A stretch of DNA of 64,000 nt from Candidatus Nealsonbacteria bacterium (GCA_030628945.1 DAOVPY010000002.1:23831-87830), one strand, 5' to 3'. Positions 29,905 through 61,633 are shown, counted from the first letter of the stretch. Numbers and translations are program-made. The notes: generated by a model not told the origin, from the letters alone.

Positions 29905-29961
29905 GCTGAATGTAGTACGAACTTTGTGAGTTATCCACAAAATTCGAAGTTATTAACATAG

Positions 29962-30003
29962 TTTTCCACAATCTCCCACTACACTTTATCTATACTCCAC
30001 TTT
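29962..30003 (-). promoter_or_regulatory. candidate MraZ operator (GTGG-type boxes at helical spacing)
   Basis: The minus strand reads AAAGTGGAGTATAGATAAAGTGTAGTGGGAGATTGTGGAAAAC. GTGG words sit at offsets 0, 21 and 31, with GTGT at 16. The region is 60-100 nt upstream of mraZ. Confidence 0.45.
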
Positions 30004-30041
30004 ATATGCCTCGTCAACCCTTATTTTTCCACAGAATATCC

Positions 30042-30075
30042 ACAACCCCGCCTTTGTGTACAAAAGCGGGGTTGT
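30042..30075. repeat. long GC-rich hairpin
   Basis: acaaccccgc ... gcggggttgt, with an internally pairing loop (tttgt/acaaa). Confidence 0.7.
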
Positions 30076-30108
30076 GCCCCACTCTAAAAATAAAAATCCC
30101 CTAAACCA

Positions 30109-30150
30109 ATCCATTACAAACTAATCCGATCGGATTAGTTTGTAATGGAT
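30109..30150. repeat. perfect 42-bp palindrome
   Basis: atccattacaaactaatccga|tcggattagtttgtaatggat with no mismatches. Confidence 0.95.
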
Positions 30151-30164: not shown

Positions 30165-30189
30165 CAAAATAAAAAGCGCCTACGGCGCC
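30165..30189 (-). terminator. rho-independent terminator of the 35394-30191 operon
   Basis: The minus strand reads GCGCC-GTA-GGCGC followed by TTTTTATTTTGTTTTTT, immediately after the stop at 30191. Confidence 0.75.
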
Positions 30190-30190
30190 T

Positions 30191-30412
30191 TTATTTATTT
30201 AGCTCAAAACATTCTAAAAGTTTTTCTGCTTCTTCTAATCTCAATACTCTGTATCTATCTCCGCCAGACTCTTTTATAGTTTTTATATCTTTTTGTAAAA
30301 CCCGTATAACTTCCTTAACTTTCATATCAGAAAGATATACCATTATTTTTGTCTTTTTCAAAATATGAAGAACCGCTCTAATTTCTTCCGCAGAAAGTAT
30401 TAATTCTGCCAT
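30191..30412 (-). CDS. hypothetical small protein (73 aa)
   Basis: Start moved to MAELILSAEEIRAV, preceded by an AGGAGG RBS. The longer track version overlaps the upstream ORF. Confidence 0.55.
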   Translation of the reverse strand: MAELILSAEEIRAVLHILKKTKIMVYLSDMKVKEVIRVLQKDIKTIKESGGDRYRVLRLEEAEKLLECFELNK

Positions 30413-30428
30413 TTTTCCTTTTGGCCTC

Positions 30429-30746
30429 CTATTTTCTATATTTCTCCAGACAGCTTTCAACCATTTCTTTCTCTGCCTCAACTTTTCCGTTGGGAAATCG
30501 TTTTGTGACTTCATTCATAAACATCTTTCCTTTTTCAATGTCCTCTGCCTTGGGCCCATCAAGACTAAAAAATCTTCGTCCTTTTTCTTTTTCCTTTATG
30601 GATACTATCACGTCCAAACACATAAAATCGCAGGCAAGTTGCCAGGCTTCTATTTGTTCCTGTTCGGACTGCCCCCAAGATTGTAATCCATTCAAAATAA
30701 CCTCCATTGCCACATCCTCCCGACATATATCCTTTCCTTTATTCAT
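30429..30746 (-). CDS. hypothetical small acidic protein (105 aa)
   Basis: AGGAGGG RBS upstream of MNKGKDICRE. Ends 17 nt before the 73-aa ORF. Confidence 0.55.
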   Translation of the reverse strand: MNKGKDICREDVAMEVILNGLQSWGQSEQEQIEAWQLACDFMCLDVIVSIKEKEKGRRFFSLDGPKAEDIEKGKMFMNEVTKRFPNGKVEAEKEMVESCLEKYRK

Positions 30747-30794
30747 TTTTACCCTCCTGTTGAATCTTACAACAAACTATCAAATTTGTCAAAT

Positions 30795-33344
30795 TTAGTT
30801 AATCTTCAATTTAAATTCTTTTGGCTCTATTTCCGCTCTATCCCCTCTTTTAAGTTCGTTGCTCAAAATGGCATGGGCTAAAACATTTTCCACTTTGTCC
30901 TGGATAACCCGGGCCAGATTTCTCGCGCCGAAAACCGGATTATAGCCCAATTCCACAATTTTTTCTTTTAAGGGCTGGGTGATTATAAAATCAATGCCCT
31001 TTTCTTTGAGATTTTTCTTTAATTTTTGAAACATCAATCCGGAAATGTCCAAAAGATTTTCTTTGCTCAAAGGTTGAAAAACAACCATTGCCGTAAACCG
31101 GTTAATAAATTCGGGACGGAAAATGGCTTTTTTGAATAAGTAATCCAGAAGTTTTTGTTTTACCAAAGACCATTCGCTTTTTTCTTTCAGGACTTGCAAA
31201 ATAATCTTATAGCCCGCGTTAGAAGTGGCAATAATAATAGTATTGGAAAAATCTACTTTTCTGCCATGACCGTCTGTAAGATGACCCTCGTCCAACACCT
31301 GCAAAAACAAATTCAGGATATTGGGATGGGCTTTTTCAATTTCGTCTAAAAGAACCAAGGAAAAAGGATTTTCCCTCACTTCAGTGGTCAAAAGGCCCTC
31401 TGCTTCCGAAGAGCCAATCAAACGGCTGATATCTTTCACTGCTTGAAATTCCGACATATCCAAACGGATCATTCGCGATTCTGCTTTAAAATAAATCTCG
31501 GCAAGGGCTTTGGCTGTTTCGGTTTTTCCAACCCCGGTAGGGCCTAAAAATAAAAAGCAGCCCATTGGTCCTTTTGCTTTACTCACTTCAGCCCTTGCCC
31601 TTCTTAAGGCGGCAGAAATTTCTTCCACCGCTTTATCCTGATTAATAAGCCGCTTGTGAATTAAATTTTCCAAGTTAAGGAGAATTTCTTTTTCTTTTTC
31701 TTCCATTTCGCCAACCGGAATTTCGGTCTTCTGGGCAATGAGCTTGGCTATATGTTTTGACAGAACTAATTTATCTTTGGTTGAATGGATAACATAAACC
31801 ACTGCTTCGTCCAATAAATCCATTGCTTTCTTGGGAAAAGGCGTGGCAGGCATATAACGTTTGGCAAAATAAAAAATATCCCTGATAGCCGGATAAGTTA
31901 TTAATAATTTGTATTTTGTTTCCAGACGCAGGGCTAAATTCTCTAACAATCTAATGGTGTCCTGTTGAGAAATCTCGGATGCCTCTACTTTTTCAAAAAG
32001 CGAAAGCAAAGAAGGATTTTTTTCAATATATTTATGAAAGCCGGCATAACTGGTGATAGCTATAATTTGAAATTGCGGCAATTTTAAGTATGGAGAAATA
32101 AGCCCTGAAATATCAATTGTCCCGGGTCGCGCGACGCTGCGCGCAAAATTATGAAATCCATCAATCACTAAAATAATATTCCCTGCTGAAACCACTTCTT
32201 GAAAAATTTTATCTAAAATAATCTCTGTTTCTTTCGCGTCTTCAATGTTGGAGATTAAAGACGGCAGATTCAGTTCAACCACTCTTTTATAATTTATCGG
32301 TTCCAAGCTAAGACCAAAAAAACTCTTCTGAGCCAATGCCCGGACAATGCTTTTGCGGCCGACTCCGGGCTCGCCAACCAATAAAACATTATTAAGTTTT
32401 GAACGGGATAATATTCTCTCAGCGGACTTTATTTCATTTTTATGGCCAATAATTTCTTCAAATCTTTCCTGCTTTATTATATCTCCCCAATCAAAAGAAT
32501 ATTGGTCCAGAGTTATGGTGTAGCCACTTGTCCACTCTTTTGCCAAACTTCCTCTCTTTAATAAATTTTTATATTCCCACCATTTTTTTCTCTCCGCGAT
32601 TCTCTTTTCCAGAGATTCCATCCACCAAACCAAATTCTCAATGTCTTGAACGTTAAGCTCGGTCCTAATTAAAATCCGCGCGAAAATCGGGTTGTGTTTA
32701 GCCAGCGCCGTTAAAACATCTCCTATTTCTATTCTTTGATGTTCCTTTTGAACGGCAAGTTTGAGCGCCTCTAAAATTGTTTTTTGAAAATCCTTTGAAA
32801 AAAATTGAGCGGAGGCCTGTCCTCCTCTATTTTGTTCAATCTCGATTTTTAAGATTTTTTTGAGCTCCCCTATATCCAAAATGGCTCGCGCGAAGATAAA
32901 ATTTAATTTCAAGTTATCTGTCAAAAGAAAATAAAACAAAATAGACGAGTTTAAAAAGACATTTTTCCTTTTAGCGAATTTCTCGGCGCGCCTTGCTGCT
33001 TTTGCCGCTTCAAAACCTAAAAACTCGGCTATGTTAAACCTTTTCGGTTCCAAAACAACGTCGGACATCTTAATCTTAAACCCGGGATTTTTTAATCGTA
33101 AATCAAAAAAAGCCCGCTTCCATGAACAGGCGATAAAAATAAGCAAAGAAATTATTGAAAGCCCGAGCAGAACCGACAAAATTTCAGGAGGAAATATTTC
33201 CAATAAAAAAGCAACTAAAAAAAAGAAGAAAAGAAGAACAGATATAATCTTAAAGAGTTTCTTGAAAAAACCAACCAATCTAAAGCTTGGCTCCCATTTC
33301 ACTGCTTGATAAATTTTTGTCTTTTTCAAATGAAAATTAAACAT
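30795..33344 (-). CDS. ClpB/ClpC-like double AAA+ protein with N-terminal TM helices and a degenerate first ATPase module
   Basis: D2 is canonical (GPTGVGKTETAKAL, LVLLDEIEKAHPNILN, GARNLARVIQ). D1 reads GEPGVGRKS and ILVIDGFHNF. The N-terminus has hydrophobic helices and then Clp_N-like repeats. Confidence 0.85.
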   Translation of the reverse strand: MFNFHLKKTKIYQAVKWEPSFRLVGFFKKLFKIISVLLFFFFLVAFLLEIFPPEILSVLLGLSIISLLIFIACSWKRAFFDLRLKNPGFKIKMSDVVLEPKRFNIAEFLGFEAAKAARRAEKFAKRKNVFLNSSILFYFLLTDNLKLNFIFARAILDIGELKKILKIEIEQNRGGQASAQFFSKDFQKTILEALKLAVQKEHQRIEIGDVLTALAKHNPIFARILIRTELNVQDIENLVWWMESLEKRIAERKKWWEYKNLLKRGSLAKEWTSGYTITLDQYSFDWGDIIKQERFEEIIGHKNEIKSAERILSRSKLNNVLLVGEPGVGRKSIVRALAQKSFFGLSLEPINYKRVVELNLPSLISNIEDAKETEIILDKIFQEVVSAGNIILVIDGFHNFARSVARPGTIDISGLISPYLKLPQFQIIAITSYAGFHKYIEKNPSLLSLFEKVEASEISQQDTIRLLENLALRLETKYKLLITYPAIRDIFYFAKRYMPATPFPKKAMDLLDEAVVYVIHSTKDKLVLSKHIAKLIAQKTEIPVGEMEEKEKEILLNLENLIHKRLINQDKAVEEISAALRRARAEVSKAKGPMGCFLFLGPTGVGKTETAKALAEIYFKAESRMIRLDMSEFQAVKDISRLIGSSEAEGLLTTEVRENPFSLVLLDEIEKAHPNILNLFLQVLDEGHLTDGHGRKVDFSNTIIIATSNAGYKIILQVLKEKSEWSLVKQKLLDYLFKKAIFRPEFINRFTAMVVFQPLSKENLLDISGLMFQKLKKNLKEKGIDFIITQPLKEKIVELGYNPVFGARNLARVIQDKVENVLAHAILSNELKRGDRAEIEPKEFKLKIN

Positions 33345-33347
33345 TTT

Positions 33348-33731
33348 TCAAAACATTATTTTGAAACCAAAGCCAAAACCAAAAATGAGCAATACGGGAA
33401 GGGCGAGCCAGGCCAAAAACACAACCATTCCCGCAATAATTATAAAAATCTCAAAAATCAATCCAAAAACTATCAATATGCTCCTTACAATCGCTCCCAA
33501 ACTGCGGGAAATAACGTTAAAACACCAAACCTCAAAATATCTCTTGAAATCAAATCCTCTACCGTAAAAATAGCGGTATCTCCGCCAATGAGAAAAAAAG
33601 GTCTTAAAAAGCAAAGGAAGAGAAAAATAATTCAGGTTAAATCTAAGAAAATTTCGCCAGGCCTCTAAAATCTCCTGCGGCATTTTCAAAAAATGCCATT
33701 CTAAAAATTGAATAAAAATGCTTTTCCCCAT
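33348..33731 (-). CDS. hypothetical membrane protein (127 aa)
   Basis: Aromatic/basic N-terminal half and two C-terminal TM helices. Its stop lies 3 nt from the ClpB-like start. Confidence 0.6.
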   Translation of the reverse strand: MGKSIFIQFLEWHFLKMPQEILEAWRNFLRFNLNYFSLPLLFKTFFSHWRRYRYFYGRGFDFKRYFEVWCFNVISRSLGAIVRSILIVFGLIFEIFIIIAGMVVFLAWLALPVLLIFGFGFGFKIMF

Positions 33732-33802
33732 TAAATATATTTTACCACAAAACCTAATAAAAATGAATTCCAGGAAATGAAAAAGTCCCCAACAAATGAG
33801 GA

Positions 33803-35020
33803 CTATTCTTCTTCTATTAAATCAAATAAAGACGGAACATTCTTGCCTTTCTCTTCCAATTTAGAAATTTTATTTTGCATTTCTATTTCTTTTTCTCTCT
33901 CTTTCACCAAATAAGCGTCCGAGCCCGCGTAAAACTTTTCTATTCTTTTTAACCGCGGCAGTTGAGAAAGAACAATGGTAACGCTTACCGAACCTCCTCC
34001 CGAAACAGGATAATATCCTCCCCTGATTTCGGCTTCGGGCGCGAATTTTTTCAGACGTTTCTCAATATCGCTAAGAATATTGGCATAAGTATCTTTCTCC
34101 GATGCCCGCAGAAGAAACAGAATTCTTCCTGCTTCCTTGCCCATCTCTTCCAAACTTGAATACTTGGAATAAAGAGACAACTCTGCTAACGCTTCTTCTA
34201 CAGCGGCTATGGCATAAGAAATCACATCGCTTTCTTCGGTAAAATCTTTTTTCTTGAGCCGGTCCCAAAAAGGTATTTTTGATTGTCCGGAGCCCATAAT
34301 TGTCCAGCCGTTCAAAGAAACAATAATATCGCTGGCATCTACTACCTTATTAATATGCTTTGTTTTCCTCTGCTCTCCCGCGTATAACAGGTCTATGAAG
34401 GGAAAAACTATTTCGTAATTGATTGCCTCCAGATTGCCTGATAAAGAAGCGTTTTTTTGGATATAAGCTTCATTATCCACTAAGAACACTGCGTCAGCCT
34501 CTTCGTAGGTTGCCTTAAGGCAGATGGCAGTATTATAGACCGCCCTTTCTTCGTTTTTTTCTTCGTATTCAAAAGGAAGAACTAACAGAGCGTAAATCGG
34601 CATATCCCTGCCGTAATTCTTTTTCATCTGTTTAACAATCACGGGTACCGAACCAGAGCCGGTGCCGCCGCTCGTGGCTCCAATCACTAAAACAGCGTCT
34701 GTTTTTCCGTAAAAACCTTTAATCTTTTCATTAATGACATCGGTTATCAAACCGAACTTGTCATGAGCAAGTTGAGCGCCTTTTTCATTGAGCTTGCCGG
34801 CTCCGGATCCTTTGCCCCTTTCATCGGTAAGTAAAATGCGAAATTCTTTAGATATGTTTTTCACCCCGTAAAGGTCAATTCGCGCCGTATTTATCGCCAA
34901 GGCGCCGGTGAGAATTTTTTCTTTTAAATGTCTCTTCCTTCTTATATCCTGCGCCGAATATACAAACTCGTCTGCAATCCTGTTTCCGCACTGTCCGCAT
35001 CCTATAACAAACAATTTCAT
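33803..35020 (-). CDS. tubulin/FtsZ-superfamily GTPase, CetZ-like
   Basis: MKLFVIGCGQCGNRIADEF, AINTARIDL, GKGSGAGKLNEKGA, GATSGGTGSGSVPVIV, FLVDNEA, VVDASDI, C-terminal NVPSLFDLIEEE. Confidence 0.8.
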   Translation of the reverse strand: MKLFVIGCGQCGNRIADEFVYSAQDIRRKRHLKEKILTGALAINTARIDLYGVKNISKEFRILLTDERGKGSGAGKLNEKGAQLAHDKFGLITDVINEKIKGFYGKTDAVLVIGATSGGTGSGSVPVIVKQMKKNYGRDMPIYALLVLPFEYEEKNEERAVYNTAICLKATYEEADAVFLVDNEAYIQKNASLSGNLEAINYEIVFPFIDLLYAGEQRKTKHINKVVDASDIIVSLNGWTIMGSGQSKIPFWDRLKKKDFTEESDVISYAIAAVEEALAELSLYSKYSSLEEMGKEAGRILFLLRASEKDTYANILSDIEKRLKKFAPEAEIRGGYYPVSGGGSVSVTIVLSQLPRLKRIEKFYAGSDAYLVKEREKEIEMQNKISKLEEKGKNVPSLFDLIEEE

Positions 35021-35043
35021 TTTTTTCGTCTCCTTTTTTTATT

Positions 35044-35394
35044 CTATCTATTGCAGAAAAAAGCAATAAGCAATAAAACTATTGCCACAAGAATAGCTAT
35101 AAATGTCCAATACCAAGCGTTAAATAAAACAGCTAAAACCACCCCGATAAATGTCATTGCTAAAGCGATTGCTTGAATAACAGAATTAAATAAATTAACC
35201 ATTACAAAACCGCGTAAAACGCCAAACATTGCAGCTACTACTCCCACGCCGACAATTACTAAAAATGTCCAATTTTGGCTGATAAAAACTGCTGCCGCTC
35301 CAACAACCATTAAAATCACGCCTAATCCTAAAAGAGTCGGAGTCAATATTTCGGTTCTCTCAAATCCTTGTCTTCTCATTTTGTTTTTCTTCAC
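35044..35394 (-). CDS. hypothetical 4-TM membrane protein (116 aa)
   Basis: Four hydrophobic helices. An AGGAG RBS for the next gene lies in the 23-nt gap. Confidence 0.6.
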   Translation of the reverse strand: MKKNKMRRQGFERTEILTPTLLGLGVILMVVGAAAVFISQNWTFLVIVGVGVVAAMFGVLRGFVMVNLFNSVIQAIALAMTFIGVVLAVLFNAWYWTFIAILVAIVLLLIAFFCNR

Positions 35395-35420
35395 CCCGTT
35401 AATTTTTCAACGAACCTCGG

Positions 35421-35494
<74 letters not shown>

Positions 35495-35533
35495 CTTATT
35501 TCCATACTAACATCTATCACCAAAAAAAGTAAA

Positions 35534-35560
35534 CCCCCACACCAAAATTTGGTGTGGGGG
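35534..35560 (-). terminator. perfect 13-bp-stem hairpin terminator
   Basis: cccccacaccaaa-a-tttggtgtggggg, with a T-run on the minus strand. Lies downstream of the stop at 35589. Confidence 0.8.
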
Positions 35561-35588
35561 TTCTAATATCTCTATATTTTATTCCTTT

Positions 35589-36378: not shown

Positions 36379-36897
36379 CTAAATCCTTTTTATGCTCCTC
36401 AGAACAAAATAAGCGATTAAGCCGCCGACCAAAGCCGTTGCAAGCTGTGGCCAGCTAAACATCAATGCCGCTTTTTGGGCAATCTCTTTTTTGAGAAGCA
36501 AATCAATAACTATTGAACTCGCGCCGAATAAAAAGACAAACTTTAAAATACTCGCCAAAATTATGCCCAGCCAGTAATTTCTTTCCTTAAAATAACCGAA
36601 AACCACAATCAAAATAGTGTTGCCGAGCATAATAAAGGGAATTATCGGGGCCAATATTGGCGGCAAAAGCCCGACAGATAAAGCGATTACGCTGGGAATA
36701 ATGCCAACCAAAATCGCGTTTTGGGTTCCCAAAACTCCAACCGAGATAAAAAGCGCGGCATTAACAATAGGGCCGGTAATTGCCTGCTGGCGCAATAAAG
36801 AAGCAGCGCTTACAATGCCGACCAATACAATAAATTGGATTAAAATAAAAACTTTTTCTTTTGAAATTATTGTTGTTAGAGTTTTTTCTTGGTTCAT
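36379..36897 (-). CDS. integral membrane protein, translationally coupled to hydA (possibly ECF S-component-like)
   Basis: Start moved to MNQEKT so that its ATG overlaps the hydA TGA (ATGA). 5-6 TM helices. Confidence 0.55.
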   Translation of the reverse strand: MNQEKTLTTIISKEKVFILIQFIVLVGIVSAASLLRQQAITGPIVNAALFISVGVLGTQNAILVGIIPSVIALSVGLLPPILAPIIPFIMLGNTILIVVFGYFKERNYWLGIILASILKFVFLFGASSIVIDLLLKKEIAQKAALMFSWPQLATALVGGLIAYFVLRSIKRI

Positions 36898-38576
36898 ATA
36901 ACTTCTCTTCTCTTTGCAAAATATTTTGTGCGGCAAATAAGCCGGATTTTTTCTTTTGAAAAAAGAAAATCGCGATAAACTTTCTTTATTGCGGGATTAT
37001 GATGAGCCAGACGGATTTCTTTTTTGGCGTCAATCCTATAAAGAGCTTTTGCCCTCTCCTCTCTGATTTTACCATTCGTCGGCATTGGCTGACCACCGCC
37101 GCCGATACATCCGCCGGGACAAGCCATTATTTCCACGGCGTCGTATAATTTAGGATTTCTTTTTAAATCTTCCAAAATCTTTTTGGCATTCCCCAAACCG
37201 CTCGCCACGGCTATTTTTATCGGCCTTCCATTGATATTTATCGCGGCTTTCTTTATCCCCTCCATCCCCCGCGCCTTTTTAAACTCTATTCTCAATGGCT
37301 TGTTTTTGGCAAATTTGTCAAAAATAGTACGCAGGGCTGACTCCATAACCCCGCCGCTGGCTCCGTAAATCACTCCCCCGCCGCTTGGAATGCCCAAAGG
37401 GTCATCGGCTTTCTCTCCCAAAATTTTTTTGAGATTAATTTTGCGCTTTTTGAAAAAACAAGCTATCTCCCGGGTAGTTAAAACATAATCAACCGGTTTT
37501 AAGCCGTTTATTTCCAACTCCTTTCTTTGAATTTCATATTTTTTAGCCACGCAGGGCATAATAGAAACAACTATTATTTTTTTGGGCTCAATGTCTTGTT
37601 TTTCAGCCCAATAGGTTTTAATCAATCCGCCCAAAATGGCCTGAGGCGACCTCACCGCGGCTAAATTAGAAACAAATTCCGGATAATAGAATTCAACGAA
37701 TTTGACCCACGCGGGACAGCAGGAACTCAGACAAGGGCCGGTTTGATTTTCCAACTTCTCAAGTAATTCCCCGGATTCTTCAACAGTGGTAAAATCAGCG
37801 CCCACGCTGGTATCAAAAACTTTAGCAGCTCCTAATTTTTTGAGGCCCGCGACTAATTGCTCTGTCACTATTGAACCGTAAGGCATATTAAATTCCTCGC
37901 CAATGCTGGTTCTGATAGAAGGCGCAAATTGAAAAACAACAATTTTATTCTTGTTTTTCAACGCTCTCTCAACGTCTTTCAAATTTGACGCAGCTTCAAG
38001 GGCGCCGGTCGGACAATGAATAATACACTGGCCGCAATAAACGCAGTCCCGAGTTTGTTTTTGGGAAGGAGTTATTTTCAGAAGATGGCCCCTGCCCTTA
38101 ATTTCCAAAAAGCGCGCGCCCTGGTTTTCGCAAACCTCAACGCAATTGCGGCAGTCAATGCATTTTGAACTGTCAAAAACAACTGCGGGCCCGAATTTGC
38201 GAACCGGCTCATCGCCTTTTCTGAAAGAAAACCTGTTTATTTCTATTTTGTATTTTTTGGCTAATCTAAAAAGCTCACAATCCCCGCGGTGCCGGGCGAA
38301 AATCAATTCTAAATTAATTTTTCTGGCTTTTTTAATTTTCGCGGACTCGGTGATAATTTCCATGCCCGGTTCAATCTTTGTCGCGCAAGCCGCAAACAGC
38401 CCCTTCCTTCCCTTGATTTCCACCATACAAATTCGGCAAATAGCCTTGATATTAAGGTCCGGGTGAAAACAAAGAGCCGGAATTTCAATTCCATTTTCTT
38501 GAGCTACCTCTAATATGGTTTGCTCTTTTTGGCACTCAATCTTTTTGTTGTTAATAACGGCTCTAATTTTTTTCAT
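36894..38576 (-). CDS. hydA: [FeFe]-hydrogenase catalytic subunit
   Basis: N-terminal 2Fe-2S and 4Fe-4S cysteine motifs. H-cluster motifs SSCCPAW, MPCVAKKYE, EIMACPGGCIGGGGQP. Confidence 0.92.
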   Translation of the reverse strand: MKKIRAVINNKKIECQKEQTILEVAQENGIEIPALCFHPDLNIKAICRICMVEIKGRKGLFAACATKIEPGMEIITESAKIKKARKINLELIFARHRGDCELFRLAKKYKIEINRFSFRKGDEPVRKFGPAVVFDSSKCIDCRNCVEVCENQGARFLEIKGRGHLLKITPSQKQTRDCVYCGQCIIHCPTGALEAASNLKDVERALKNKNKIVVFQFAPSIRTSIGEEFNMPYGSIVTEQLVAGLKKLGAAKVFDTSVGADFTTVEESGELLEKLENQTGPCLSSCCPAWVKFVEFYYPEFVSNLAAVRSPQAILGGLIKTYWAEKQDIEPKKIIVVSIMPCVAKKYEIQRKELEINGLKPVDYVLTTREIACFFKKRKINLKKILGEKADDPLGIPSGGGVIYGASGGVMESALRTIFDKFAKNKPLRIEFKKARGMEGIKKAAININGRPIKIAVASGLGNAKKILEDLKRNPKLYDAVEIMACPGGCIGGGGQPMPTNGKIREERAKALYRIDAKKEIRLAHHNPAIKKVYRDFLFSKEKIRLICRTKYFAKRREVI

Positions 38577-39562
38577 TTCCCCTTTTTCATAATTTTTTCA
38601 ATTAAACTTCTGAAAGGAGGAACCAAGATTTTTCCAAAAGAGCAAAAACTGGTTTCCTCTAAAACAAAAAACAGGTCTTGTATTGTTTTTTTGTCAATGT
38701 TTTCTTTTTGCGCCATTTCAGCGATACGATAAACGCCTTCCCGGCAAGGCGTACATTTGCCGCAGCCGGATTCAAGAAAAAACTTGGCCCATTTCTTGAG
38801 CAAAAACTCGGGTTTGGTTTTTGCGCGGTTAAAAACAATAATAGCTCCCTGTCCCTTGGCTTTCTGTTTTAATTCCTTGGGAAGCAAAATCTCGCCGGAA
38901 GCGCCGCCGCCAACCTGAACAAAAAAATCAAACGCGGGTAAATTTTCAGTTTTTTCCAAAACCCTCTCAATTGGCCAATTTTCCGGCAAATCATAAACGC
39001 CTTTGTTTTTTACCTCGCCGCTGATTGAATAAAAACGAGTTCCAAGGAACTCGTTTTTAGCGATTTTAGCGACGCAATAAAATGTCTCGGCATTGTTAAT
39101 CAAAGTCGGGCAGCCAAAAAGGCCGAACTGAACGGGATATGGCGGCTTCATTCTCGGCTCTAACCTTTTTCCTTCAATCGCGTTTAGCAAAACCGTTTCT
39201 TCACCCGCCAGATAACCGCCTGTTTTTTTGAAAAGCGTAATTGGCAGATTTCGTGTAAGCGCATCTAATTTCTTTTTGAATTTTTCATAATAATCTTTGC
39301 GAAGATAGATGTAAGCCGAACTATTATCAATCGTTTTCAGGGCTATTTTTATTCCTTCCATCATTTCCTCAAGATAATTCTCTAAAATAAAACCGTCCTT
39401 GAAAACATCGGGCTCGCCTTCGGAAACATTGCAAATAATATATTTCTTTTTTGCTTTGGCTTTCCTGACCATCTCCCATTTTAGACCGGTTGGAAAACCA
39501 GACCCGCTCCTGCCCAGGAGATTGTGTTTTTTTAATTTCGCGATAATATCTTGCTTGTCCAT
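38573..39562 (-). CDS. NuoF-like flavoprotein subunit (HydB-like), short form
   Basis: GRSGSGFPTGLKWE, CNVSEGEPDVFKD, GGYLAGEETVLLNAIEG, PPYPVQFGLFGCPTLINNAETF, SGCGKCTPCREG. ATGA overlap with hydA. Confidence 0.85.
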   Translation of the reverse strand: MDKQDIIAKLKKHNLLGRSGSGFPTGLKWEMVRKAKAKKKYIICNVSEGEPDVFKDGFILENYLEEMMEGIKIALKTIDNSSAYIYLRKDYYEKFKKKLDALTRNLPITLFKKTGGYLAGEETVLLNAIEGKRLEPRMKPPYPVQFGLFGCPTLINNAETFYCVAKIAKNEFLGTRFYSISGEVKNKGVYDLPENWPIERVLEKTENLPAFDFFVQVGGGASGEILLPKELKQKAKGQGAIIVFNRAKTKPEFLLKKWAKFFLESGCGKCTPCREGVYRIAEMAQKENIDKKTIQDLFFVLEETSFCSFGKILVPPFRSLIEKIMKKGK

Positions 39563-39706: not shown

Positions 39707-41248
39707 TCAAAAATTATTTTTAAAAATGGAATTAAAAATACTTTGATAGTCTTCCTTAAATAAGAATTTAGCATTTTTATAGTATTCTGTAAATATACTA
39801 CTCATGAAAGATTGAAACGCCCATTTCTTTTTATCGTCGTCAAAAACTTTCTTCTGCATAAAATCTGAAATCCCTGTTTTTTGTATTATTTGGATCATAT
39901 TTTCAAACTCATCAACTGAGCAAATTGAATAAGGCATTTGTTCCAAATATGACGGGTCAATCTTTTCTTGCTTTAGTTTTTCAATCAATATTTTGTTTAA
40001 TTCATTAAAAAACCGATCACCAAATAAATACCATTGCTCAAGAGTTAATACTAAAGGAAATATCTTTTTATTTTTATCAAACTTGAATGAAGGATATTTA
40101 TTGTCCTTATAATCTTTTATTGTTTTGTAGATTTGCAAAACAAAACTTGCCATTTTTTCTAATTCCTCGTTAACATAAGAGCTATCATTAAGTTCAAACT
40201 TTGCCGGCAATCTTAATCTTTTAGTTTTACATTCTACAAATAAAGCAGAATCATTATCATAAATAATCCAATCAGCACTATCTTTTCTATCTTTTCCGAC
40301 GAAGTATTGTTCCTCTGCCTGAAAATTAATTTTTTCATTAGTCGCCGTAGCTTTCTCAATAACTTCACCTGTATAATTTTGGAAAGATGTACCGAAATAG
40401 TTATCAAAATTTTTTCCATTGCAAATTTCATAATAGACACCACTGGTTATACGCCAAAATAACAAAGTCGGCAATGGACAGACTAAACGCTCTTGACCAA
40501 AATAAATCATTTTAATAATCGGGGAAGCTCTTAACGACGAAAAAGAATAAACAAATTTGTTATTAAATTCTTGTTCATTTTTTATTTTTTCTTTTAGTCC
40601 ACTGATTGAGACAGAGAAAACTTTTAAAAACTTTTCAACATTTTCCTGGTTTATTTCTTTAACTTCTACTTTGATTGGTAAATTAACAGCAGGATATTTT
40701 AAATAGGCACCTATAAACATCATTCCTACGAGATACAAATTTTTTGCTGTTAATCCAATGGATTTTTGTAAAATTTCATCTAATTTTGGCATACTAAAAA
40801 TTTTGTAATAGCGGGTTAAAAATTTACTATTTGGTCTTGCCTGCCAAGGAAATTGACGATGTGATATTCGAAATAATTCAACAAGAATATTATCTTTATT
40901 TATATAAGCACCACCAATATTATTTTCTAAATTTTTTAGTTTATTAACAGCGCCAGCAAAATAACCCGATTTTTTAAGAGTTTGATTATTAAAAGAGCTT
41001 TCTTGTCCATTGATGATTATTTCTCTTGATAAAGCTTCTAATTCCCATTCAGAACACATTCTTGTTTTCTGTATGTGATCGTTATTCAAAAACTCTAAAA
41101 TCACTTCTATTTCTTTGGATATTGGATTATTGAATTGTAAATGTTGAATGTATGACCAAATGACGAAAAAAGAATCATCAAGCGACAATTTGCTTAGATG
41201 ATTTCTTAGTGGTTTATATTCATTAAAAACAAAATCATCTTGTGTCAT
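39707..41248 (-). CDS. hypothetical protein with a PD-(D/E)xK nuclease motif (candidate second endonuclease subunit)
   Basis: 513 aa. SADWIIYDNDSALFVECKTKR fits D...ExK. The gap to the upstream gene is 13 nt. Confidence 0.5.
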   Translation of the reverse strand: MTQDDFVFNEYKPLRNHLSKLSLDDSFFVIWSYIQHLQFNNPISKEIEVILEFLNNDHIQKTRMCSEWELEALSREIIINGQESSFNNQTLKKSGYFAGAVNKLKNLENNIGGAYINKDNILVELFRISHRQFPWQARPNSKFLTRYYKIFSMPKLDEILQKSIGLTAKNLYLVGMMFIGAYLKYPAVNLPIKVEVKEINQENVEKFLKVFSVSISGLKEKIKNEQEFNNKFVYSFSSLRASPIIKMIYFGQERLVCPLPTLLFWRITSGVYYEICNGKNFDNYFGTSFQNYTGEVIEKATATNEKINFQAEEQYFVGKDRKDSADWIIYDNDSALFVECKTKRLRLPAKFELNDSSYVNEELEKMASFVLQIYKTIKDYKDNKYPSFKFDKNKKIFPLVLTLEQWYLFGDRFFNELNKILIEKLKQEKIDPSYLEQMPYSICSVDEFENMIQIIQKTGISDFMQKKVFDDDKKKWAFQSFMSSIFTEYYKNAKFLFKEDYQSIFNSIFKNNF

Positions 41249-41261
41249 TTTTTATACAATT

Positions 41262-42653
41262 TTATGACCAAAAATCCAAAAGATTTTTTATTGCTTCCTT
41301 AAATAATGCAGGGGCTTTTATTCCCAAAACAAGATCGCCGTTTTCATTAAGTAAAAAGCCGACTTTAATTTCAACGACTTTCTTTTCTGTCCCGCCGTAC
41401 AAAACAACAGTGCGGATAATTTTGTATTTTGGATAATACTTTTTAATATAAATTTTTTCTATATCACCGAAACTTTTTAATTCCTTAATTCCATTTTGGC
41501 GAAATTGATATTTTTTACCTTCAATATTTATAATTTTACTTCTACCGAAGTCAATTAAAATTAAATCTGGGATACTGATAATTTTATTTTTATTGCCAGC
41601 TTTATACGCCTTTCTGTCCGAGTATTTTTCAAGCGGAATATACTTACCATCACTCGTTATAAAATAACCCTTTTCGCAACCGGCATGATTTTCAAAAATT
41701 GAAAATCCTTTAGTAAAGTTTTCAACGACTAGATGAATAAAAATTGTGCCAAGCTTTTCGCCCTCTATTTCATATTTCCAATAAATATCCCTTTCTTTAC
41801 TTGTAGGCAAAGTCAATCCTTGAATTTGTAATTTTAAATGATTGGCAATTTTTACAAATTTATTACCAGATTGCAGATGTTTTTGTTTTAATCCGTGTTT
41901 TGTAATAACAATTTCGCCAGTCCAACCCAATTTTCGAATTGCCGCACTAATTAAACTTAACGCTCCGATATTTGGATCGTGAGCAAGCCCGCCTAATTTA
42001 TACAATCTTCCTGAAATTGTTATTTTATTATCCTTTTTCTTTATTAAAATCGGCACATTGCCTTTATGGGCGTGGTGCATTTTCTTCTTAAGGGCAACGA
42101 TTTCATCAATTGAATTAAACGGCCTAAAGATTTTTTCATCTAATTTCTTGCCAAGTATTTCTACACCAAGCATCAGCAACAATTTTGTACCGAAAATATA
42201 AGTGGCTGTCGGTATTTCCTTTTGTTCTACTTTTAGATTATAGAGCATTACTTTTTTGATTTCGGGGTAATAATTTTCAATAAAAACAAATTTTGAGGCG
42301 CGTTGATATACGCCGGTATTTCGGCTTTCTTTGTCATCGGTTTTTGTTTCTTCAATCGCGTAAAGCGGAGTATCTTTTTGCGTTGGCTGTTTCCCTTGAT
42401 AGAAAATAAGAAAATCAACAAAGCTGGAAAATCCGCTAACGGATTTTATAAAAACCCTTTCAATTTTATTACAACGAAAACCAACTACCTCGTATAAAAA
42501 AGCAAATTTTTCGCTCTCTAAAATTGGCAAAATCCTAATTGTGTCAACAAAACAAGCGAACTTATTGTCTTTCGCAAACATCATTAAAATATTTGCGATA
42601 ACTTCTCGCTTTGGTCTTTCTTCTGTTAAAATCCACAAATTTTTATTTTTCAT
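41262..42653 (-). CDS. putative type II restriction endonuclease
   Basis: 463 aa. IPDLILIDFGRSKIINIEGKK fits PD...ExK. The gap to the methyltransferase gene is 2 nt. Confidence 0.55.
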   Translation of the reverse strand: MKNKNLWILTEERPKREVIANILMMFAKDNKFACFVDTIRILPILESEKFAFLYEVVGFRCNKIERVFIKSVSGFSSFVDFLIFYQGKQPTQKDTPLYAIEETKTDDKESRNTGVYQRASKFVFIENYYPEIKKVMLYNLKVEQKEIPTATYIFGTKLLLMLGVEILGKKLDEKIFRPFNSIDEIVALKKKMHHAHKGNVPILIKKKDNKITISGRLYKLGGLAHDPNIGALSLISAAIRKLGWTGEIVITKHGLKQKHLQSGNKFVKIANHLKLQIQGLTLPTSKERDIYWKYEIEGEKLGTIFIHLVVENFTKGFSIFENHAGCEKGYFITSDGKYIPLEKYSDRKAYKAGNKNKIISIPDLILIDFGRSKIINIEGKKYQFRQNGIKELKSFGDIEKIYIKKYYPKYKIIRTVVLYGGTEKKVVEIKVGFLLNENGDLVLGIKAPALFKEAIKNLLDFWS

Positions 42654-42655
42654 AA

Positions 42656-50684: not shown

Positions 50685-51578
50685 CTAAACCTCATTCATA
50701 ATCCTCTGGTGCGTCTCTTTCGCTTTCCTTATTTCCACTTTCGCATAAAATTTCAAAGTGGTGCGCGGCGACTTATGCCGAGCAAGATGTTGAACCTCTT
50801 TTATTGTCGCACCCTTGTCTAATAATAAAGAACAAAAACTTCTTCTTAAAGAATGATGAGTGATCTGTTTCGTAAATCCAAACTCCTTTCTATATTTTAA
50901 CAAATGCTTTCTGGCTACACAAGACGATAATCTTGAAATCTTTTGCGGATTGTAAGTAATAAATAAATCCGGGCACTCATCTCCTCGCGTTGCCAAATAT
51001 CTTTTGAGCCAACTCAAACTTCTTTCCGAAAAATAAAGCCATCCTTCATTCTCTCCTTTTGCTCCTTTAATTTTTACTTCTCTATTTTCTAAATCAATAC
51101 CATTTTTATTAAGCGACAAAATTTCTGAAATCCTTGCTCCGGTTGAAAAAAGTATTTCGTATAATGTGCGATCCCGCAATCCGTAAAGAGTATGTAAGGA
51201 TATTTTTTCAACAAAATTGTTAAACTCTGTCTCGGTTAAAAAGTCCTGTTCTTTTTCGGCAACTTTTGGGACCTCAATTTCTCTCCAGTCAAACGGAATT
51301 TTTTCCCCGCTTTCTTTTAAGAATTTTAGATAGCGCCGAAGGGTGCAAATGGCCCGGGTTGGTCCATGTTCTCCGTGAGTCCTGCCGGCTTCTATAACTG
51401 AAGCCACATCGGCGATTTTCAAATGTTTTATTTTTTTATCTATCAATAAAGAATGCGAAACCGCGCCAAACAAAAATCGGCGATGTTCCCGGATTGTTTT
51501 TTCAGTCAATCCTTTCTGTCTCATGTATTCAAAATAATTTTGGAAGCCGTCTTTTACTCTCATAAAAAAACCACTCAT
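50685..51578 (-). CDS. tyrosine site-specific recombinase/integrase
   Basis: SAM-like N-domain. Catalytic pattern GARISEIL, HHSLRRSF, LARHKSPRTTLKFY. Confidence 0.9.
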   Translation of the reverse strand: MSGFFMRVKDGFQNYFEYMRQKGLTEKTIREHRRFLFGAVSHSLLIDKKIKHLKIADVASVIEAGRTHGEHGPTRAICTLRRYLKFLKESGEKIPFDWREIEVPKVAEKEQDFLTETEFNNFVEKISLHTLYGLRDRTLYEILFSTGARISEILSLNKNGIDLENREVKIKGAKGENEGWLYFSERSLSWLKRYLATRGDECPDLFITYNPQKISRLSSCVARKHLLKYRKEFGFTKQITHHSLRRSFCSLLLDKGATIKEVQHLARHKSPRTTLKFYAKVEIRKAKETHQRIMNEV

Positions 51579-57688: not shown

Positions 57689-57689
57689 A

Positions 57690-57905
57690 TTATTTTTGTG
57701 GTTGTTTCGCTAATTTAATCTTGCCCGTCTTAAGGTCTATTTCGTAGTTTTGATTCATATCTAAAGAATAACGAGGGAGCAAATTTTTAATATAAATCTG
57801 ATTTTGAATTTCTAAAGCCTGAGAAATCAAGATATGCTGATTTATCAAATCAGCTCTTTTTTTTAATTCTTCTAAATCTTCTGATTTTAATTTTTTCTCA
57901 AACAT
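57690..57905 (-). CDS. phage hypothetical small protein
   Basis: 71 aa. Its stop is adjacent to the next gene's start. Confidence 0.4.
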   Translation of the reverse strand: MFEKKLKSEDLEELKKRADLINQHILISQALEIQNQIYIKNLLPRYSLDMNQNYEIDLKTGKIKLAKQPQK

Positions 57906-57978
57906 AATTTTGATTTGATTTATTGACTTAATTCGACGTTTAATTTGACTTATTTTTTAATTAAGTTATCATTTAATA

Positions 57979-58533: not shown

Positions 58534-58561
58534 AAAGAACTAATCTTTAATTTTATTTTCT

Positions 58562-58586
58562 GTCGCTCTTTATGAGCGATTTTTTA
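58562..58586. terminator. bidirectional hairpin between convergent genes
   Basis: gtcgctc-tttat-gagcgat followed by tttttattt. Confidence 0.6.
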
Positions 58587-61608: not shown

Positions 61609-61633
61609 TTTACTTTATTTTTTAATTATGTAT

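What the first reader, a model, noticed from the sequence alone, without database searches (positions are those of the whole stretch)
30191..35394. Operon pairing a CetZ/tubulin-like GTPase with small membrane proteins and a membrane-anchored ClpB-like AAA+ protein
Six co-directional minus-strand genes sit close together. In order they are a 4-TM protein (116 aa), a tubulin/FtsZ-superfamily protein (405 aa), and a 127-aa membrane protein whose stop lies 3 nt from the next start. That next gene is an 849-aa ClpB/ClpC-like protein with N-terminal TM helices. Two small soluble proteins (105 and 73 aa, both with AGGAGG-type RBS) follow, and the operon ends at a GC hairpin plus T-run (30165-30189). 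The operon lies immediately upstream of the mraZ-rsmH-ftsL-ftsI division cluster. I cannot assign a cytomotive-type GTPase, a membrane-tethered unfoldase and dedicated membrane partners to any described system. It could be a membrane-remodelling or division-accessory machine.
Basis: partly seen in the sequence, partly recalled or inferred. Interest (0 to 1): 0.8.

Follow-up and report, generated by a model that had tools for sequence, protein, structure and literature searches.

The report
CetZ-like tubulin cassette beside Clp-like ATPase
The six genes exist as described, but they are two unrelated modules that happen to be adjacent: a rare two-gene cassette (a CetZ-type tubulin relative plus its own small membrane protein), and a membrane-anchored Clp-like ATPase pair that many candidate-phyla-radiation (CPR) bacteria keep upstream of their cell-division genes.

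Summary
All six minus-strand genes, the protein family calls and the end terminator are confirmed. The 405-aa protein is not FtsZ. It is a CetZ-like tubulin-superfamily GTPase by Pfam (Tubulin + CetZ_C), by best PDB sequence match and by best fold match (Haloferax/Methanosaeta CetZ). Its nearest relatives (38-43% identity) are CetZ-like proteins of Dehalococcoidales.

The idea of one dedicated machine fails the synteny test. In 5 of 5 Patescibacteria relatives that lack CetZ, the 127-aa membrane protein and the 2-TM Clp-like ATPase still sit directly upstream of mraZ-rsmH-ftsL-ftsI. In 80 of 80 Dehalococcoidales loci, CetZ-like genes have no Clp neighbour.

The 116-aa 4-TM protein is an orphan with three homologues. 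It occurs only next to the CPR-type CetZ (3 of 3 lineages). The pair has its own conserved terminator, and the 127-aa gene has its own conserved promoter-like box.

Best reading: tm116 + CetZ-like is an accessory 1.6-kb cassette between tRNA-Val and a conserved CPR block. It probably forms a membrane-tethered GTP-dependent filament. The Clp-like ATPase has a degenerate D1, no M domain and no ClpP loop, and it works independently.

Interest is moderate: a CetZ-type protein in a CPR bacterium, and an apparently undescribed CPR-wide membrane-anchored Hsp100 variant.

The parts
35531..35563 (-). Intrinsic terminator of the upstream MscS-like gene. It forms the upstream boundary.
   Evidence: 15-bp stem plus T-run; -27.1 kcal/mol, z = -6.1.
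35419..35494 (-). tRNA-Val(CAC). The tm116-cetZ cassette lies immediately downstream of it.
   Evidence: ARAGORN and Rfam. The same tRNA precedes tm127 directly in L085 and precedes the cassette in L004.
35044..35394 (-). tm116: an orphan protein with about four TM segments. It is the candidate membrane receptor or anchor of the CetZ-like protein. The likely start is the ATG at 35379. It carries an invariant cytoplasmic N-terminal motif, GFERTEIL.
   Evidence: ORF; hydropathy; only 3 homologues among 5.8 billion clusters, each followed by a CetZ-like gene where context is visible; no Pfam, NCBIfam, PHROG or PADLOC family.
33803..35020 (-). CetZ-like tubulin/FtsZ-superfamily GTPase (405 aa). 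It has a T1 loop GCGQCGN, a T4 loop SGGTGSG, a T7 acid D231, a long C-terminal helix and a conserved tail NVPSLF followed by DLIEEE.
   Evidence: Pfam Tubulin + CetZ_C; best PDB sequence hits CetZ1 4b46 (4e-35), CetZ2 4b45 and CetZ 3zid; AF2 model with pLDDT 86, whose top four folds are all CetZ chains; alignment and invariant columns; tree.
33784..33804 (-). Terminator-like hairpin plus T-run, overlapping the cetZ-like stop codon. It ends the two-gene cassette.
   Evidence: -14.1 kcal/mol (z = -2.2). The same hairpin is in L004 with a different loop (-15.5 kcal/mol, z = -4.1).
33739..33749 (-). Promoter-like extended -10 box (TGTGGTAAAAT), 7 nt before the tm127 ATG. This spacing suggests a leaderless or very short-leader transcript (inferred).
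   Evidence: Sequence. The box and its spacing are conserved in L085, directly after tRNA-Val, and in L004.
33348..33731 (-). tm127: a CPR-conserved small protein with an aromatic-rich N-terminal part and two C-terminal TM helices. It is the constant partner of the Clp-like gene.
   Evidence: Found upstream of the Clp-like gene in 7 of 7 loci at 54-76% identity; no Pfam or PDB relative.
30795..33344 (-). Membrane-anchored Hsp100/Clp-like double AAA+ ATPase (849 aa). Its layout is a 2-TM hairpin, a Clp_N-like helical domain, D1 with degenerate Walker A (GVGRKS) and Walker B (IDGF), and a canonical ClpB-type D2. It has no M domain and no ClpP-docking loop.
   Evidence: alignment to ClpB 1qvr; motif census in 120 CPR homologues; no [IVLM]G[FLIM] motif in D2, and a P-loop spacing of 277 residues; AF2 model.
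30764..30792 (-). Sigma-70-like promoter match (TTGACA-17-TAAGAT, 10 of 12) in front of s105.
   Evidence: This is a consensus match only.
30429..30746 (-). s105: a small soluble protein of unknown function, specific to this lineage.
   Evidence: ORF with an AGGAGG RBS; 80% identical copy in L085 only; no family hit.
30191..30412 (-). s73: a small soluble protein of unknown function, not conserved even in L085.
   Evidence: Public gene call of 73 aa; RBS; no homologous ORF in L085.
30172..30192 (-). Intrinsic terminator ending the row, upstream of mraZ.
   Evidence: 9-bp stem (5 GC pairs) plus T-run; -13.5 kcal/mol, z = -2.8.

Best explanation
The six-gene row is a composite of independent modules in a Patescibacteria (CPR) genome.

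Module A is tm116 + the CetZ-like gene (about 35418 to 33784, roughly 1.6 kb). It is an accessory cassette that lies between tRNA-Val and the resident genes and has its own terminator. The CetZ-like protein has every nucleotide-binding and catalytic motif of a polymerising tubulin-superfamily GTPase. I infer that it forms GTP-dependent filaments on the inner face of the membrane. I also infer that the orphan 4-TM protein tm116 is its dedicated membrane receptor. Contact would most likely be between the conserved cytoplasmic N-terminal GFERTEIL segment of tm116 and the conserved C-terminal tail of the CetZ-like protein. By analogy with archaeal CetZ, the likely role is cell-shape or envelope organisation, not primary division.

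Module B is tm127 + the membrane-anchored Clp-like ATPase. It is a conserved CPR gene pair that always sits upstream of the mraZ-rsmH-ftsL-ftsI cluster. The ATPase is a hexameric unfoldase tethered by a 2-TM hairpin and driven by D2 only. It cannot dock ClpP and lacks the DnaK-coupling M domain. It most likely pulls on or remodels membrane or envelope-associated proteins with tm127 as partner (inferred).

Module C is s105 + s73, lineage-specific small genes. The adjacency of A and B is a consequence of where the cassette sits, not evidence of a shared machine.

The composite architecture, the family assignments and the motif states are shown. The anchoring role of tm116, the filament function, and the substrates and role of the Clp-like ATPase are inferred.
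For: Composite architecture:
- L085, whose Clp-like protein is 77% identical, has MscS, tRNA-Val, tm127, LamG, Clp-like, s105, mraZ and no tm116 or CetZ.
- L086, L087, L090 and L091 (59-63% identity) also have tm127, Clp-like and the mraZ cluster without CetZ.
- L004 (CetZ 76% identical) has tRNA-Val, a tm116-like gene, CetZ, a tm127-like gene, LamG and Clp-like.
- L089 is a third lineage, with a tm116-like gene (61%) directly followed by a CetZ-like gene (66%).
- tm116 has only 3 homologues in 5.8 billion clusters.
- 80 Dehalococcoidales CetZ-like loci have no Clp, tm116 or tm127 relative within 8 kb. There the gene sits between eno-gap and dnaX-ybaB-recR.

Separate transcription:
- A hairpin plus T-run after the cetZ stop is conserved in the window and in L004.
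- An extended -10 box before tm127 is conserved in the window, L004 and L085.

CetZ identity and activity:
- Pfam Tubulin 91.7 bits and CetZ_C 41.6 bits (cut-off 21.6).
- The FtsZ equivalog model scores 51 bits against a cut-off of 295.
- PDB sequence search: CetZ1 4e-35, against about 1e-6 for the best FtsZ.
- AF2 pLDDT 86, with the top four folds all CetZ chains.
- D228 and D231 are invariant and align with the CetZ1 T7 residues D215 and E218.
- The tail motif [DN][IVL]P[ST]L[LF] is present in 26 of 35 bacterial-type sequences. It resembles CetZ1 LESLF, whose mutation abolishes function (bioRxiv 10.1101/2024.04.08.588506). It also resembles the FtsZ tail DVPSFL in L009.

Clp-like features.
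Against: - No experiment or transcript data exist. The terminator after cetZ is moderate (-14 kcal/mol, z = -2.2), so read-through into tm127 and the Clp-like gene is possible.
- All three tm116/CetZ lineages come from one study's metagenomes. The 3-of-3 adjacency therefore reflects a narrow clade and could be inherited rather than selected.
- The interaction between tm116 and the CetZ-like protein is untested. No complex prediction was possible.
- Only ±8 kb was seen in relatives, so a CetZ gene elsewhere in those genomes is not excluded.
- Whether the indel is a gain or a loss cannot be decided. GC and GC3 of the cassette are host-like, and no att-like repeats were found.
- Clp-family unfoldases are known to act on FtsZ in other bacteria (my recollection, not checked here). 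A functional link with a tubulin relative is therefore not absurd.
Confidence: 0.62

Rival explanations
1. One integrated machine. CetZ-like filaments, tm116, tm127 and the membrane-tethered Clp-like unfoldase cooperate in membrane remodelling or division. For example, the unfoldase could disassemble CetZ-like polymers at the membrane.
For: The genes are tightly packed and co-directional. They lie next to the division cluster. The arrangement recurs in L004. The terminator after cetZ is only moderate.
Against: tm127 + Clp-like is conserved without CetZ in 5 of 5 other CPR loci, including one at 77% identity. CetZ-like genes have no Clp neighbour in 80 of 80 Dehalococcoidales loci. A terminator and a promoter-like box, both conserved, lie between the modules. 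A LamG gene is inserted between tm127 and Clp-like in L004 and L085, so this neighbourhood tolerates unrelated insertions. Co-direction is the default across 30 kb here.
Confidence: 0.1
2. The CetZ-like protein is this organism's division GTPase. It would replace or duplicate FtsZ, which would explain its position beside the dcw cluster.
For: It lies 4 kb upstream of mraZ. No canonical ftsZ is in the 64-kb window. Its C-terminal tail resembles the FtsZ C-terminal peptide.
Against: The closest relative, L085, has the same dcw neighbourhood without it, so it is dispensable. Dehalococcoidales with CetZ-like genes also keep ftsA-ftsZ (L009). It scores 51 bits against a 295-bit cut-off on the FtsZ equivalog model. 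Patescibacteria were included among FtsZ-bearing bacteria in a family-wide survey (PMC9871819). The rest of this genome could not be searched.
Confidence: 0.07
3. The cassette is a remnant of a mobile element, and the tubulin relative is a TubZ/PhuZ-type DNA-partition or phage-cytoskeleton protein.
For: It is an indel directly downstream of a tRNA gene. There is one weak PHROG hit (2.8e-6, unknown function). TubZ structures are among the fold hits.
Against: There is no integrase, TubR-like adaptor, att-like repeat or other mobile gene in the cassette. CetZ structures and sequences score far better than TubZ. Composition is host-like. In Dehalococcoidales the family sits in a fixed housekeeping context. 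There are no PADLOC hits.
Confidence: 0.05
4. tm116 is unrelated to the CetZ-like protein and was merely co-inherited with it. The CetZ-like protein reaches the membrane through general anchors such as FtsA or SepF, via its FtsZ-like tail, or directly.
For: Dehalococcoidales CetZ-like proteins have the same tail motif but no tm116-like neighbour. Purified Haloferax CetZ1 binds liposomes without a partner. The three tm116 lineages are closely related.
Against: The distribution of tm116 matches that of the CPR-type CetZ exactly. The gap is 23 nt with a shared terminator. The CPR-type tail carries an extra segment (DLIEEE / DSLKEE) that is absent in Dehalococcoidales.
Confidence: 0.16

Closest known systems
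Archaeal CetZ (Haloferax volcanii CetZ1/CetZ2, Methanosaeta CetZ; PDB 4b46, 4b45, 3zid)
   Same: Same domain pair (Tubulin GTPase + CetZ_C), and the best sequence and fold matches. The T7 catalytic acid is conserved. A short hydrophobic C-terminal tail motif is shared (xSLF). The size is similar.
   Different: About 35% identity over the GTPase domain only. The host is bacterial, whereas reviews call CetZ archaea-specific (PMC9856176). The tail is followed by an acidic extension. The gene is paired with a 4-TM orphan gene. The tree places it in a bacterial-type clade, not inside canonical CetZ1 or CetZ2.
CetZ-like proteins of Chloroflexota-Dehalococcoidia (mentioned in Santana-Molina et al. 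2023, PMC9871819)
   Same: These are the nearest relatives (38-43% identity over the full length). They share the motifs and the C-terminal peptide and fall in the same clade.
   Different: They sit in a fixed housekeeping context (eno-gap / dnaX-ybaB-recR). They often occur as two paralogues flanking coiled-coil proteins, with no small TM partner and no Clp. The window protein sits on a long branch, and only a handful of CPR-type sequences exist (P0002 at 76% identity, plus fragments at about 62-66%).
FtsZ with its membrane tethers (FtsA, ZipA, SepF)
   Same: As a working analogy, both are tubulin-superfamily filaments held at the membrane through a conserved C-terminal peptide. The FtsZ tail in L009 is DVPSFL, against NVPSLF here.
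   Different: This protein is not an FtsZ. The proposed tether is a polytopic 4-TM protein unrelated to any known FtsZ anchor.
ClpB / ClpC / ClpA (Hsp100 class I AAA+ unfoldases)
   Same: It has two AAA+ modules, a ClpB-type D2 with the D2-small domain, an AAA_lid_9 domain and an N-terminal Clp_N-like helical domain.
   Different: It has an N-terminal 2-TM hairpin. Its D1 Walker A reads GxGRKS, and in this lineage Walker B reads IDGF. It has no M domain (ClpB residues 393-521 have no counterpart). It has no ClpP-docking [IVL]G[FL] loop. All equivalog scores are far below cut-off.
Membrane-anchored AAA+ machines such as FtsH or Msp1/ATAD1 (functional analogy from general knowledge)
   Same: Each is a hexameric AAA+ ring held at the cytoplasmic face of a membrane by N-terminal TM helices.
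   Different: They belong to a different AAA+ clade. FtsH carries a protease domain, whereas this protein has none and keeps Hsp100 architecture.

Membership tests
CetZ (tubulin superfamily) | Tubulin/FtsZ GTPase domain with T1 and T4 (GGGTGSG-type) nucleotide-binding loops | tested here: met
   PF00091 at 91.7 bits. GCGQCGN and SGGTGSG are present, and G118, G119, G121, S122 and G123 are invariant in the family alignment.
CetZ (tubulin superfamily) | CetZ-type C-terminal domain (Pfam CetZ_C, PF21011) | tested here: met
   41.6 bits against a cut-off of 21.6, covering residues 192-364 and 173 of 180 model positions.
CetZ (tubulin superfamily) | Closer to solved CetZ than to FtsZ, tubulin or TubZ in both sequence and fold | tested here: met
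   phmmer: CetZ1 4e-35, CetZ2 2.5e-21 and CetZ 2e-16, against about 1e-6 for BtubA and FtsZ. Foldseek ranks 1-4 are all CetZ chains.
CetZ (tubulin superfamily) | T7-loop catalytic acidic residue, needed for polymerisation-dependent GTPase activity (CetZ1 E218) | tested here: met
   VVDASDII aligns with CetZ1 VVDSSEII. D228 and D231 are invariant in 23 sequences.
CetZ (tubulin superfamily) | Falls inside the supported canonical (archaeal) CetZ clade | tested here: inconclusive
   The NJ tree places it in a bacterial-type clade (52% bootstrap) among archaeal CetZ-like clusters. Deep nodes are unsupported. The representative sequences carry no taxon labels.
CetZ (tubulin superfamily) | Role in cell-shape control | not testable with these tools
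   This needs genetics or imaging in an uncultured CPR organism.
FtsZ (orthodox) | Reaches the FtsZ equivalog model cut-off (TIGR00065, 295.2 bits) and has an FtsZ_C domain | tested here: not met
   51.2 bits, N-terminal half only. No FtsZ_C hit.
FtsZ (orthodox) | Encoded after ftsA at the distal end of the dcw cluster | tested here: not met
   It lies upstream of mraZ, separated from it by four genes, and no ftsA is in the window. In L009 the true ftsA-ftsZ pair is a separate gene next to the CetZ-like gene.
TubZ/PhuZ (plasmid or phage tubulins) | Partner DNA-binding adaptor (TubR) and centromere, or a phage or plasmid context | tested here: not met
   The cassette holds only tm116. There are no mobile genes or repeats. 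There is only one weak PHROG hit. TubZ folds rank below CetZ and FtsZ.
ClpB | Coiled-coil M domain inserted in the D1 small subdomain | tested here: not met
   D1 residues 276-518 align to ClpB 150-392 and D2 residues 528-840 to ClpB 522-838, so ClpB 393-521 has no counterpart. P-loop spacing is 277 residues. The AF2 model shows no long coiled coil.
ClpB | Two catalytically competent AAA+ modules, and a score at or above the equivalog cut-off | tested here: not met
   D1 Walker A is GVGRKS (Lys to Arg) and Walker B is IDGF (Glu to Gly), while D2 is canonical. TIGR03346 scores 481 bits against a cut-off of 1232.
ClpA/ClpC (ClpP partners) | ClpP-docking [IVL]G[FL] loop in D2 | tested here: not met
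   No such tripeptide lies after residue 109. D2 aligns to ClpB, which lacks the loop, almost without gaps; ClpC spans 13 more residues over the same stretch.
ClpA/ClpC (ClpP partners) | N-terminal Clp_N (double repeat) domain | tested here: inconclusive
   The ClpA model aligns from residue 118. PF02861 is precomputed for about a third of the listed CPR homologues. The AF2 model shows a confident helical domain at residues 93-227. No Clp_N hit appeared among the 25 of 30 families displayed for the window protein at E <= 0.1.
CPR membrane-anchored Clp-like family (defined here) | 2-TM N-terminal hairpin, variant D1 P-loop, a tm127-family gene immediately upstream and the mraZ cluster downstream | tested here: met
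   2 TM helices in 108 of 120 homologues, and GxPGxG(R/K)K(S/A) P-loops in most. tm127 lies upstream in 7 of 7 loci, and mraZ lies downstream in all 6 loci that extend far enough.

The most novel reading that the evidence does not exclude
The CPR-wide pair of tm127 and the membrane-tethered, D2-only, M-domain-less Hsp100 is a divisome-associated unfoldase. In this lineage it has acquired a horizontally derived CetZ-type filament, with its own polytopic membrane receptor, as a client or scaffold. On that reading the six genes really do cooperate in shaping or dividing an ultra-small cell.
Probability: 0.1. Interest if true: 0.8.

Novelty: new variant of a known kind. Interest (0 to 1): 0.45.

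Why it matters
CetZ is usually described as archaea-specific. Bacterial relatives have so far been mentioned only in passing, for Dehalococcoidia. A CetZ-type GTPase in an ultra-small CPR bacterium, paired with a private 4-TM protein, would be a compact and testable example of how a tubulin-family filament is tethered to a membrane.

Separately, the comparison shows that many Patescibacteria keep a membrane-anchored Hsp100 variant directly upstream of the division cluster. This variant has a degenerate D1, no M domain and no ClpP loop, and it comes with a conserved small membrane partner. I found no description of it in the searchable literature. It is a candidate CPR-specific envelope or division factor.

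The practical lesson is that adjacency in a genome where 30 kb of genes run in one direction is weak evidence for a shared system.

Tried and rejected
- A metagenome-contig scan with patterns specific to the CPR-type CetZ found no relatives.
- The afdb50 fold library was unavailable.
- The first bootstrap script timed out. It was replaced by a faster Kimura-distance NJ tree with 60 replicates.
- I tested whether tRNA-Val arrived with the cassette. L087, which has no CetZ, carries a tRNA like the window's, and only L085 differs. The idea was dropped.
- No att-like direct repeats flank the cassette.
- The cassette shows no GC or GC3 anomaly.
- Apart from one weak PHROG match of unknown function for the CetZ-like protein, phage and defence libraries gave only generic AAA+ hits for the Clp-like protein.
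- tm127 has no Pfam or PDB relative, even with a 7-sequence profile.
- The context of P0255, the nearest non-CPR representative, was uninformative because the contig is only 2 kb.
- I considered FtsZl1/FtsZl2 (Makarova and Koonin 2010, from memory). The weak Tubulin_2 hit is below cut-off (23 vs 27 bits), and the clear CetZ_C match argues against them.
- Whether a canonical ftsZ exists elsewhere in this genome could not be checked, because only the window is available.


Full report
**1. Observation**

The six minus-strand ORFs exist at the stated coordinates. They are tm116 (35044-35394), a 405-aa protein (33803-35020), tm127 (33348-33731), an 849-aa protein (30795-33344), s105 (30429-30746) and a 73-aa gene (30191-30412). 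The last lies inside a mechanical 107-aa ORF, and public gene calls agree with 73 aa.

The 3-nt gap between tm127 and the 849-aa gene is as described. So are the AGGAGG sites before both small genes and the closing hairpin plus T-run at 30172-30192. mraZ, rsmH, ftsL and ftsI follow directly.

Co-direction itself carries little weight. Every credible ORF between about 16.5 and 48.3 kb is on the minus strand. The row is bounded upstream by a strong terminator (35531-35563, -27 kcal/mol) and a tRNA-Val(CAC) at 35419-35494.

**2. The 405-aa protein**

- It matches Pfam Tubulin (9e-26) and CetZ_C (41.6 bits, cut-off 21.6).
- It scores only 51 bits on the FtsZ equivalog model, whose cut-off is 295.
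- Its best solved relatives by sequence are Haloferax CetZ1 (4e-35), CetZ2 and Methanosaeta CetZ. FtsZ and tubulins appear near 1e-6 or weaker.
- An AF2 model (pLDDT 86, pTM 0.86) has CetZ chains as its four best PDB fold matches, ahead of FtsZ and TubZ.
- The T1 loop (GCGQCGN) and the T4 loop (SGGTGSG) are intact. The T7 acids D228 and D231 align with CetZ1 D215 and E218 and are invariant in a 23-sequence alignment.

It should therefore be an active, polymerising GTPase.

The library of 1.84 billion representatives holds only 359 clusters with E <= 0.001. Among 5.8 billion clusters, only one other full-length protein exceeds 45% identity (P0002, 76%). The other clear CPR-type sequences are fragments at about 62-66% identity, all from the same study's metagenomes.

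The next relatives (38-43% identity) are annotated Dehalococcoidia or Chloroflexota. A scan of species-representative genomes found more than 500 such loci. The best 80 were nearly all Dehalococcoidales, and several genomes carried two or three copies.

A Kimura-distance NJ tree groups the window protein with P0002 (100% bootstrap) on a long branch. That branch sits inside this bacterial-type clade (52%), among archaeal CetZ-like clusters and far from E. coli FtsZ. Deep nodes are unresolved.

CetZ-like sequences in Dehalococcoidia were mentioned by Santana-Molina et al. 2023 (PMC9871819). Reviews still call CetZ archaea-specific (PMC9856176). I found nothing about CPR in the literature.

**3. 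The synteny test**

| Locus | Relation to the window | Gene order |
|---|---|---|
| Window | - | MscS, tRNA-Val, tm116, CetZ-like, tm127, Clp-like, s105, s73, mraZ... |
| L004 | CetZ 76% identical | MscS, tRNA-Val, tm116-like (70%), CetZ, tm127-like (71%), LamG-domain gene, Clp-like (contig ends here) |
| L085 | Clp-like 77% identical | MscS, tRNA-Val, tm127, LamG, Clp-like, s105, mraZ, rsmH, ftsL, ftsI; no tm116 or CetZ |
| L086, L087, L090, L091 | Clp-like 59-63% identical | tm127-family gene, Clp-like, 0-2 variable genes, mraZ cluster; no CetZ |
| L089 | third lineage, 850-bp contig | tm116-like (61%) directly followed by CetZ-like (66%) |

tm116 has only three homologues in the whole protein collection. 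Conversely, none of the 80 Dehalococcoidales loci has a Clp, tm116 or tm127 relative within 8 kb. There the gene lies between eno-gap and dnaX-ybaB-recR.

tm116 and CetZ therefore co-vary as a unit. tm127, the Clp-like gene and the mraZ cluster form a second, much older unit. The two units are adjacent only in this narrow lineage.

**4. Transcription signals**

These agree with the synteny result.

- A hairpin plus T-run overlaps the cetZ stop codon (33784-33804; -14.1 kcal/mol). It recurs in L004 with the same stem and a different loop (-15.5 kcal/mol, z = -4.1).
- Seven nucleotides before the tm127 ATG there is an extended -10 box (TGTGGTAAAAT, 33739-33749). It is conserved in L004. It is also conserved in L085, where it follows tRNA-Val directly.
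- A TTGACA-17-TAAGAT match precedes s105.

These are consensus matches, and read-through cannot be excluded.

The cassette (about 35418 to 33784, roughly 1.6 kb) has host-like GC and GC3 and no flanking repeats. Gain and loss cannot be told apart, and any transfer was not recent.

**5. Likely mechanism of the cassette (inferred)**

tm116 has about four hydrophobic segments with very short loops. Its only sizeable conserved soluble element is the N-terminal GFERTEIL motif, which is invariant in all three homologues.

The CetZ-like protein ends in a long helix (residues 358-392) and a tail, GKNVPSLFDLIEEE. The core motif [DN][IVL]P[ST]L[LF] occurs in 26 of 35 bacterial-type sequences. Three comparisons bear on it.

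- It resembles the CetZ1 terminus LESLF, whose mutation abolishes rod formation (bioRxiv 10.1101/2024.04.08.588506).
- It resembles the FtsZ C-terminal peptide, which reads DVPSFL in the FtsZ of L009.
- The CPR-type tail has an extra segment (DLIEEE / DSLKEE) that Dehalococcoidales lack.

I therefore propose that tm116 is a dedicated membrane receptor for the tail of a GTP-dependent CetZ-like filament. By analogy with archaeal CetZ, the role would be in shape or envelope organisation.

The main rival is that tm116 is a bystander and the tail uses general anchors. That is how Dehalococcoidales would have to manage, since they have no tm116.

**6. The 849-aa protein**

It belongs to a large Patescibacteria family. 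There are 120 or more clusters at 59% identity or higher over the full length, named Patescibacteria or Nealsonbacteria where named at all. The architecture is as follows.

- **Anchor.** A confident 2-helix hydrophobic hairpin spans residues 11-84, present in 108 of 120 homologues.
- **N domain.** A Clp_N-like helical domain spans residues 93-227.
- **D1.** The P-loop reads GxPGxG(R/K)K(S/A) in most family members and GVGRKS here. In this sub-lineage Walker B reads IDGF instead of IDEF.
- **D2.** It is canonical ClpB-type, with the D2-small domain.

Alignment to ClpB 1qvr shows that ClpB residues 393-521, the M domain, have no counterpart. P-loop spacing is 277 residues, and no [IVL]G[FL] ClpP-docking tripeptide exists in D2. 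All NCBIfam equivalog scores are far below cut-off.

The protein is therefore a membrane-tethered Hsp100 variant driven by D2 only. It is neither a ClpB disaggregase nor a ClpP partner.

Its constant upstream partner, tm127, has no known relatives. It carries the conserved motifs WxNFLxFNLNYFS and KTFFSxWRR plus two C-terminal TM helices. A role in remodelling membrane or division-associated proteins is plausible from the fixed position before mraZ, but it is untested. I found no description of this family in the searchable literature.

**7. Other rivals**

A mobile-element or TubZ/PhuZ-type reading is unlikely. The cassette holds no adaptor, integrase or repeats. Only one weak PHROG hit appeared, and there were no defence hits.

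Replacement of FtsZ is unlikely because the closest relative lacks the gene, and because Dehalococcoidales keep ftsA-ftsZ beside a CetZ-like gene. The window itself has no ftsZ, and the rest of the genome could not be examined.

**8. Verdict**

The protein identifications are correct. The proposed single CetZ-Clp machine is not supported.

What remains is of moderate interest.

- The first CetZ-type tubulin relative seen in a CPR bacterium, with a private membrane partner. It is a new member of the bacterial CetZ-like group, with a new partner.
- A widely conserved and apparently undescribed CPR membrane-anchored Hsp100 variant next to the division cluster. It is a new variant of a known kind.

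Noticed in passing
L023 3734-9179 (similar in L010, L013, L014, L016, L020-L022, L027, L034, L042, L046, L054, L060, L068, L083 and others): Many Dehalococcoidales carry two CetZ-like paralogues (~391 aa). These flank an oppositely oriented pair of Ala/Glu-rich, apparently coiled-coil proteins (~175 aa and 500-750 aa). The whole block lies between eno-gap and dnaX-ybaB-recR. It may be a conserved bacterial CetZ-plus-coiled-coil cytoskeletal locus.
   Followed up: partly
L009 5408-9176: In one Dehalococcoidales MAG the order is ftsA, ftsZ (45% identical to E. coli FtsZ), then a CetZ-like gene. The FtsZ tail (DVPSFL) and the CetZ-like tail (NIPTLL) are similar short peptides.
   Followed up: partly
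window 30111-30148 and 30041-30076: A perfect 38-nt palindrome (CCATTACAAACTAATCCGATCGGATTAGTTTGTAATGG) and a second 16-bp GC-rich hairpin lie between the row's terminator and mraZ. GTGG/GTGGG repeats at ~29960-30000, just before mraZ, could be MraZ boxes.
   Followed up: no
L085 7115-7981; L004 3093-3887; L086 16550-17389: A LamG-domain gene with a faint prepilin N-methylation signal (pseudopilin-like) sits between tm127 and the Clp-like gene in two relatives and elsewhere in a third. It is absent from that position in the window.
   Followed up: no
window 39707-44542: A 628-aa DNA methyltransferase (D12 plus N6_N4 domains) is followed by two large proteins (463 and 513 aa) with no Pfam family. 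This may be a restriction-modification or defence island.
   Followed up: no
window 36894-39562: An [FeFe]-hydrogenase-like protein (Fe_hyd_lg_C plus ferredoxin domains) is paired with a NuoF-like subunit (Complex1_51K). The same pair is in the relative L086.
   Followed up: no
window 50685-51578 and 52911-56414: A phage-integrase-family recombinase lies near a 1167-aa protein with low GC3 (0.26). Several downstream large ORFs (56459-63744) have no Pfam family. This may be a mobile or hypervariable region.
   Followed up: no
L011 and L024 (record titles): Two MAGs labelled Deltaproteobacteria carry Dehalococcoidales-type CetZ-like genes in the typical Dehalococcoidales context. The likely cause is mis-binning or mislabelling.
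   Followed up: no
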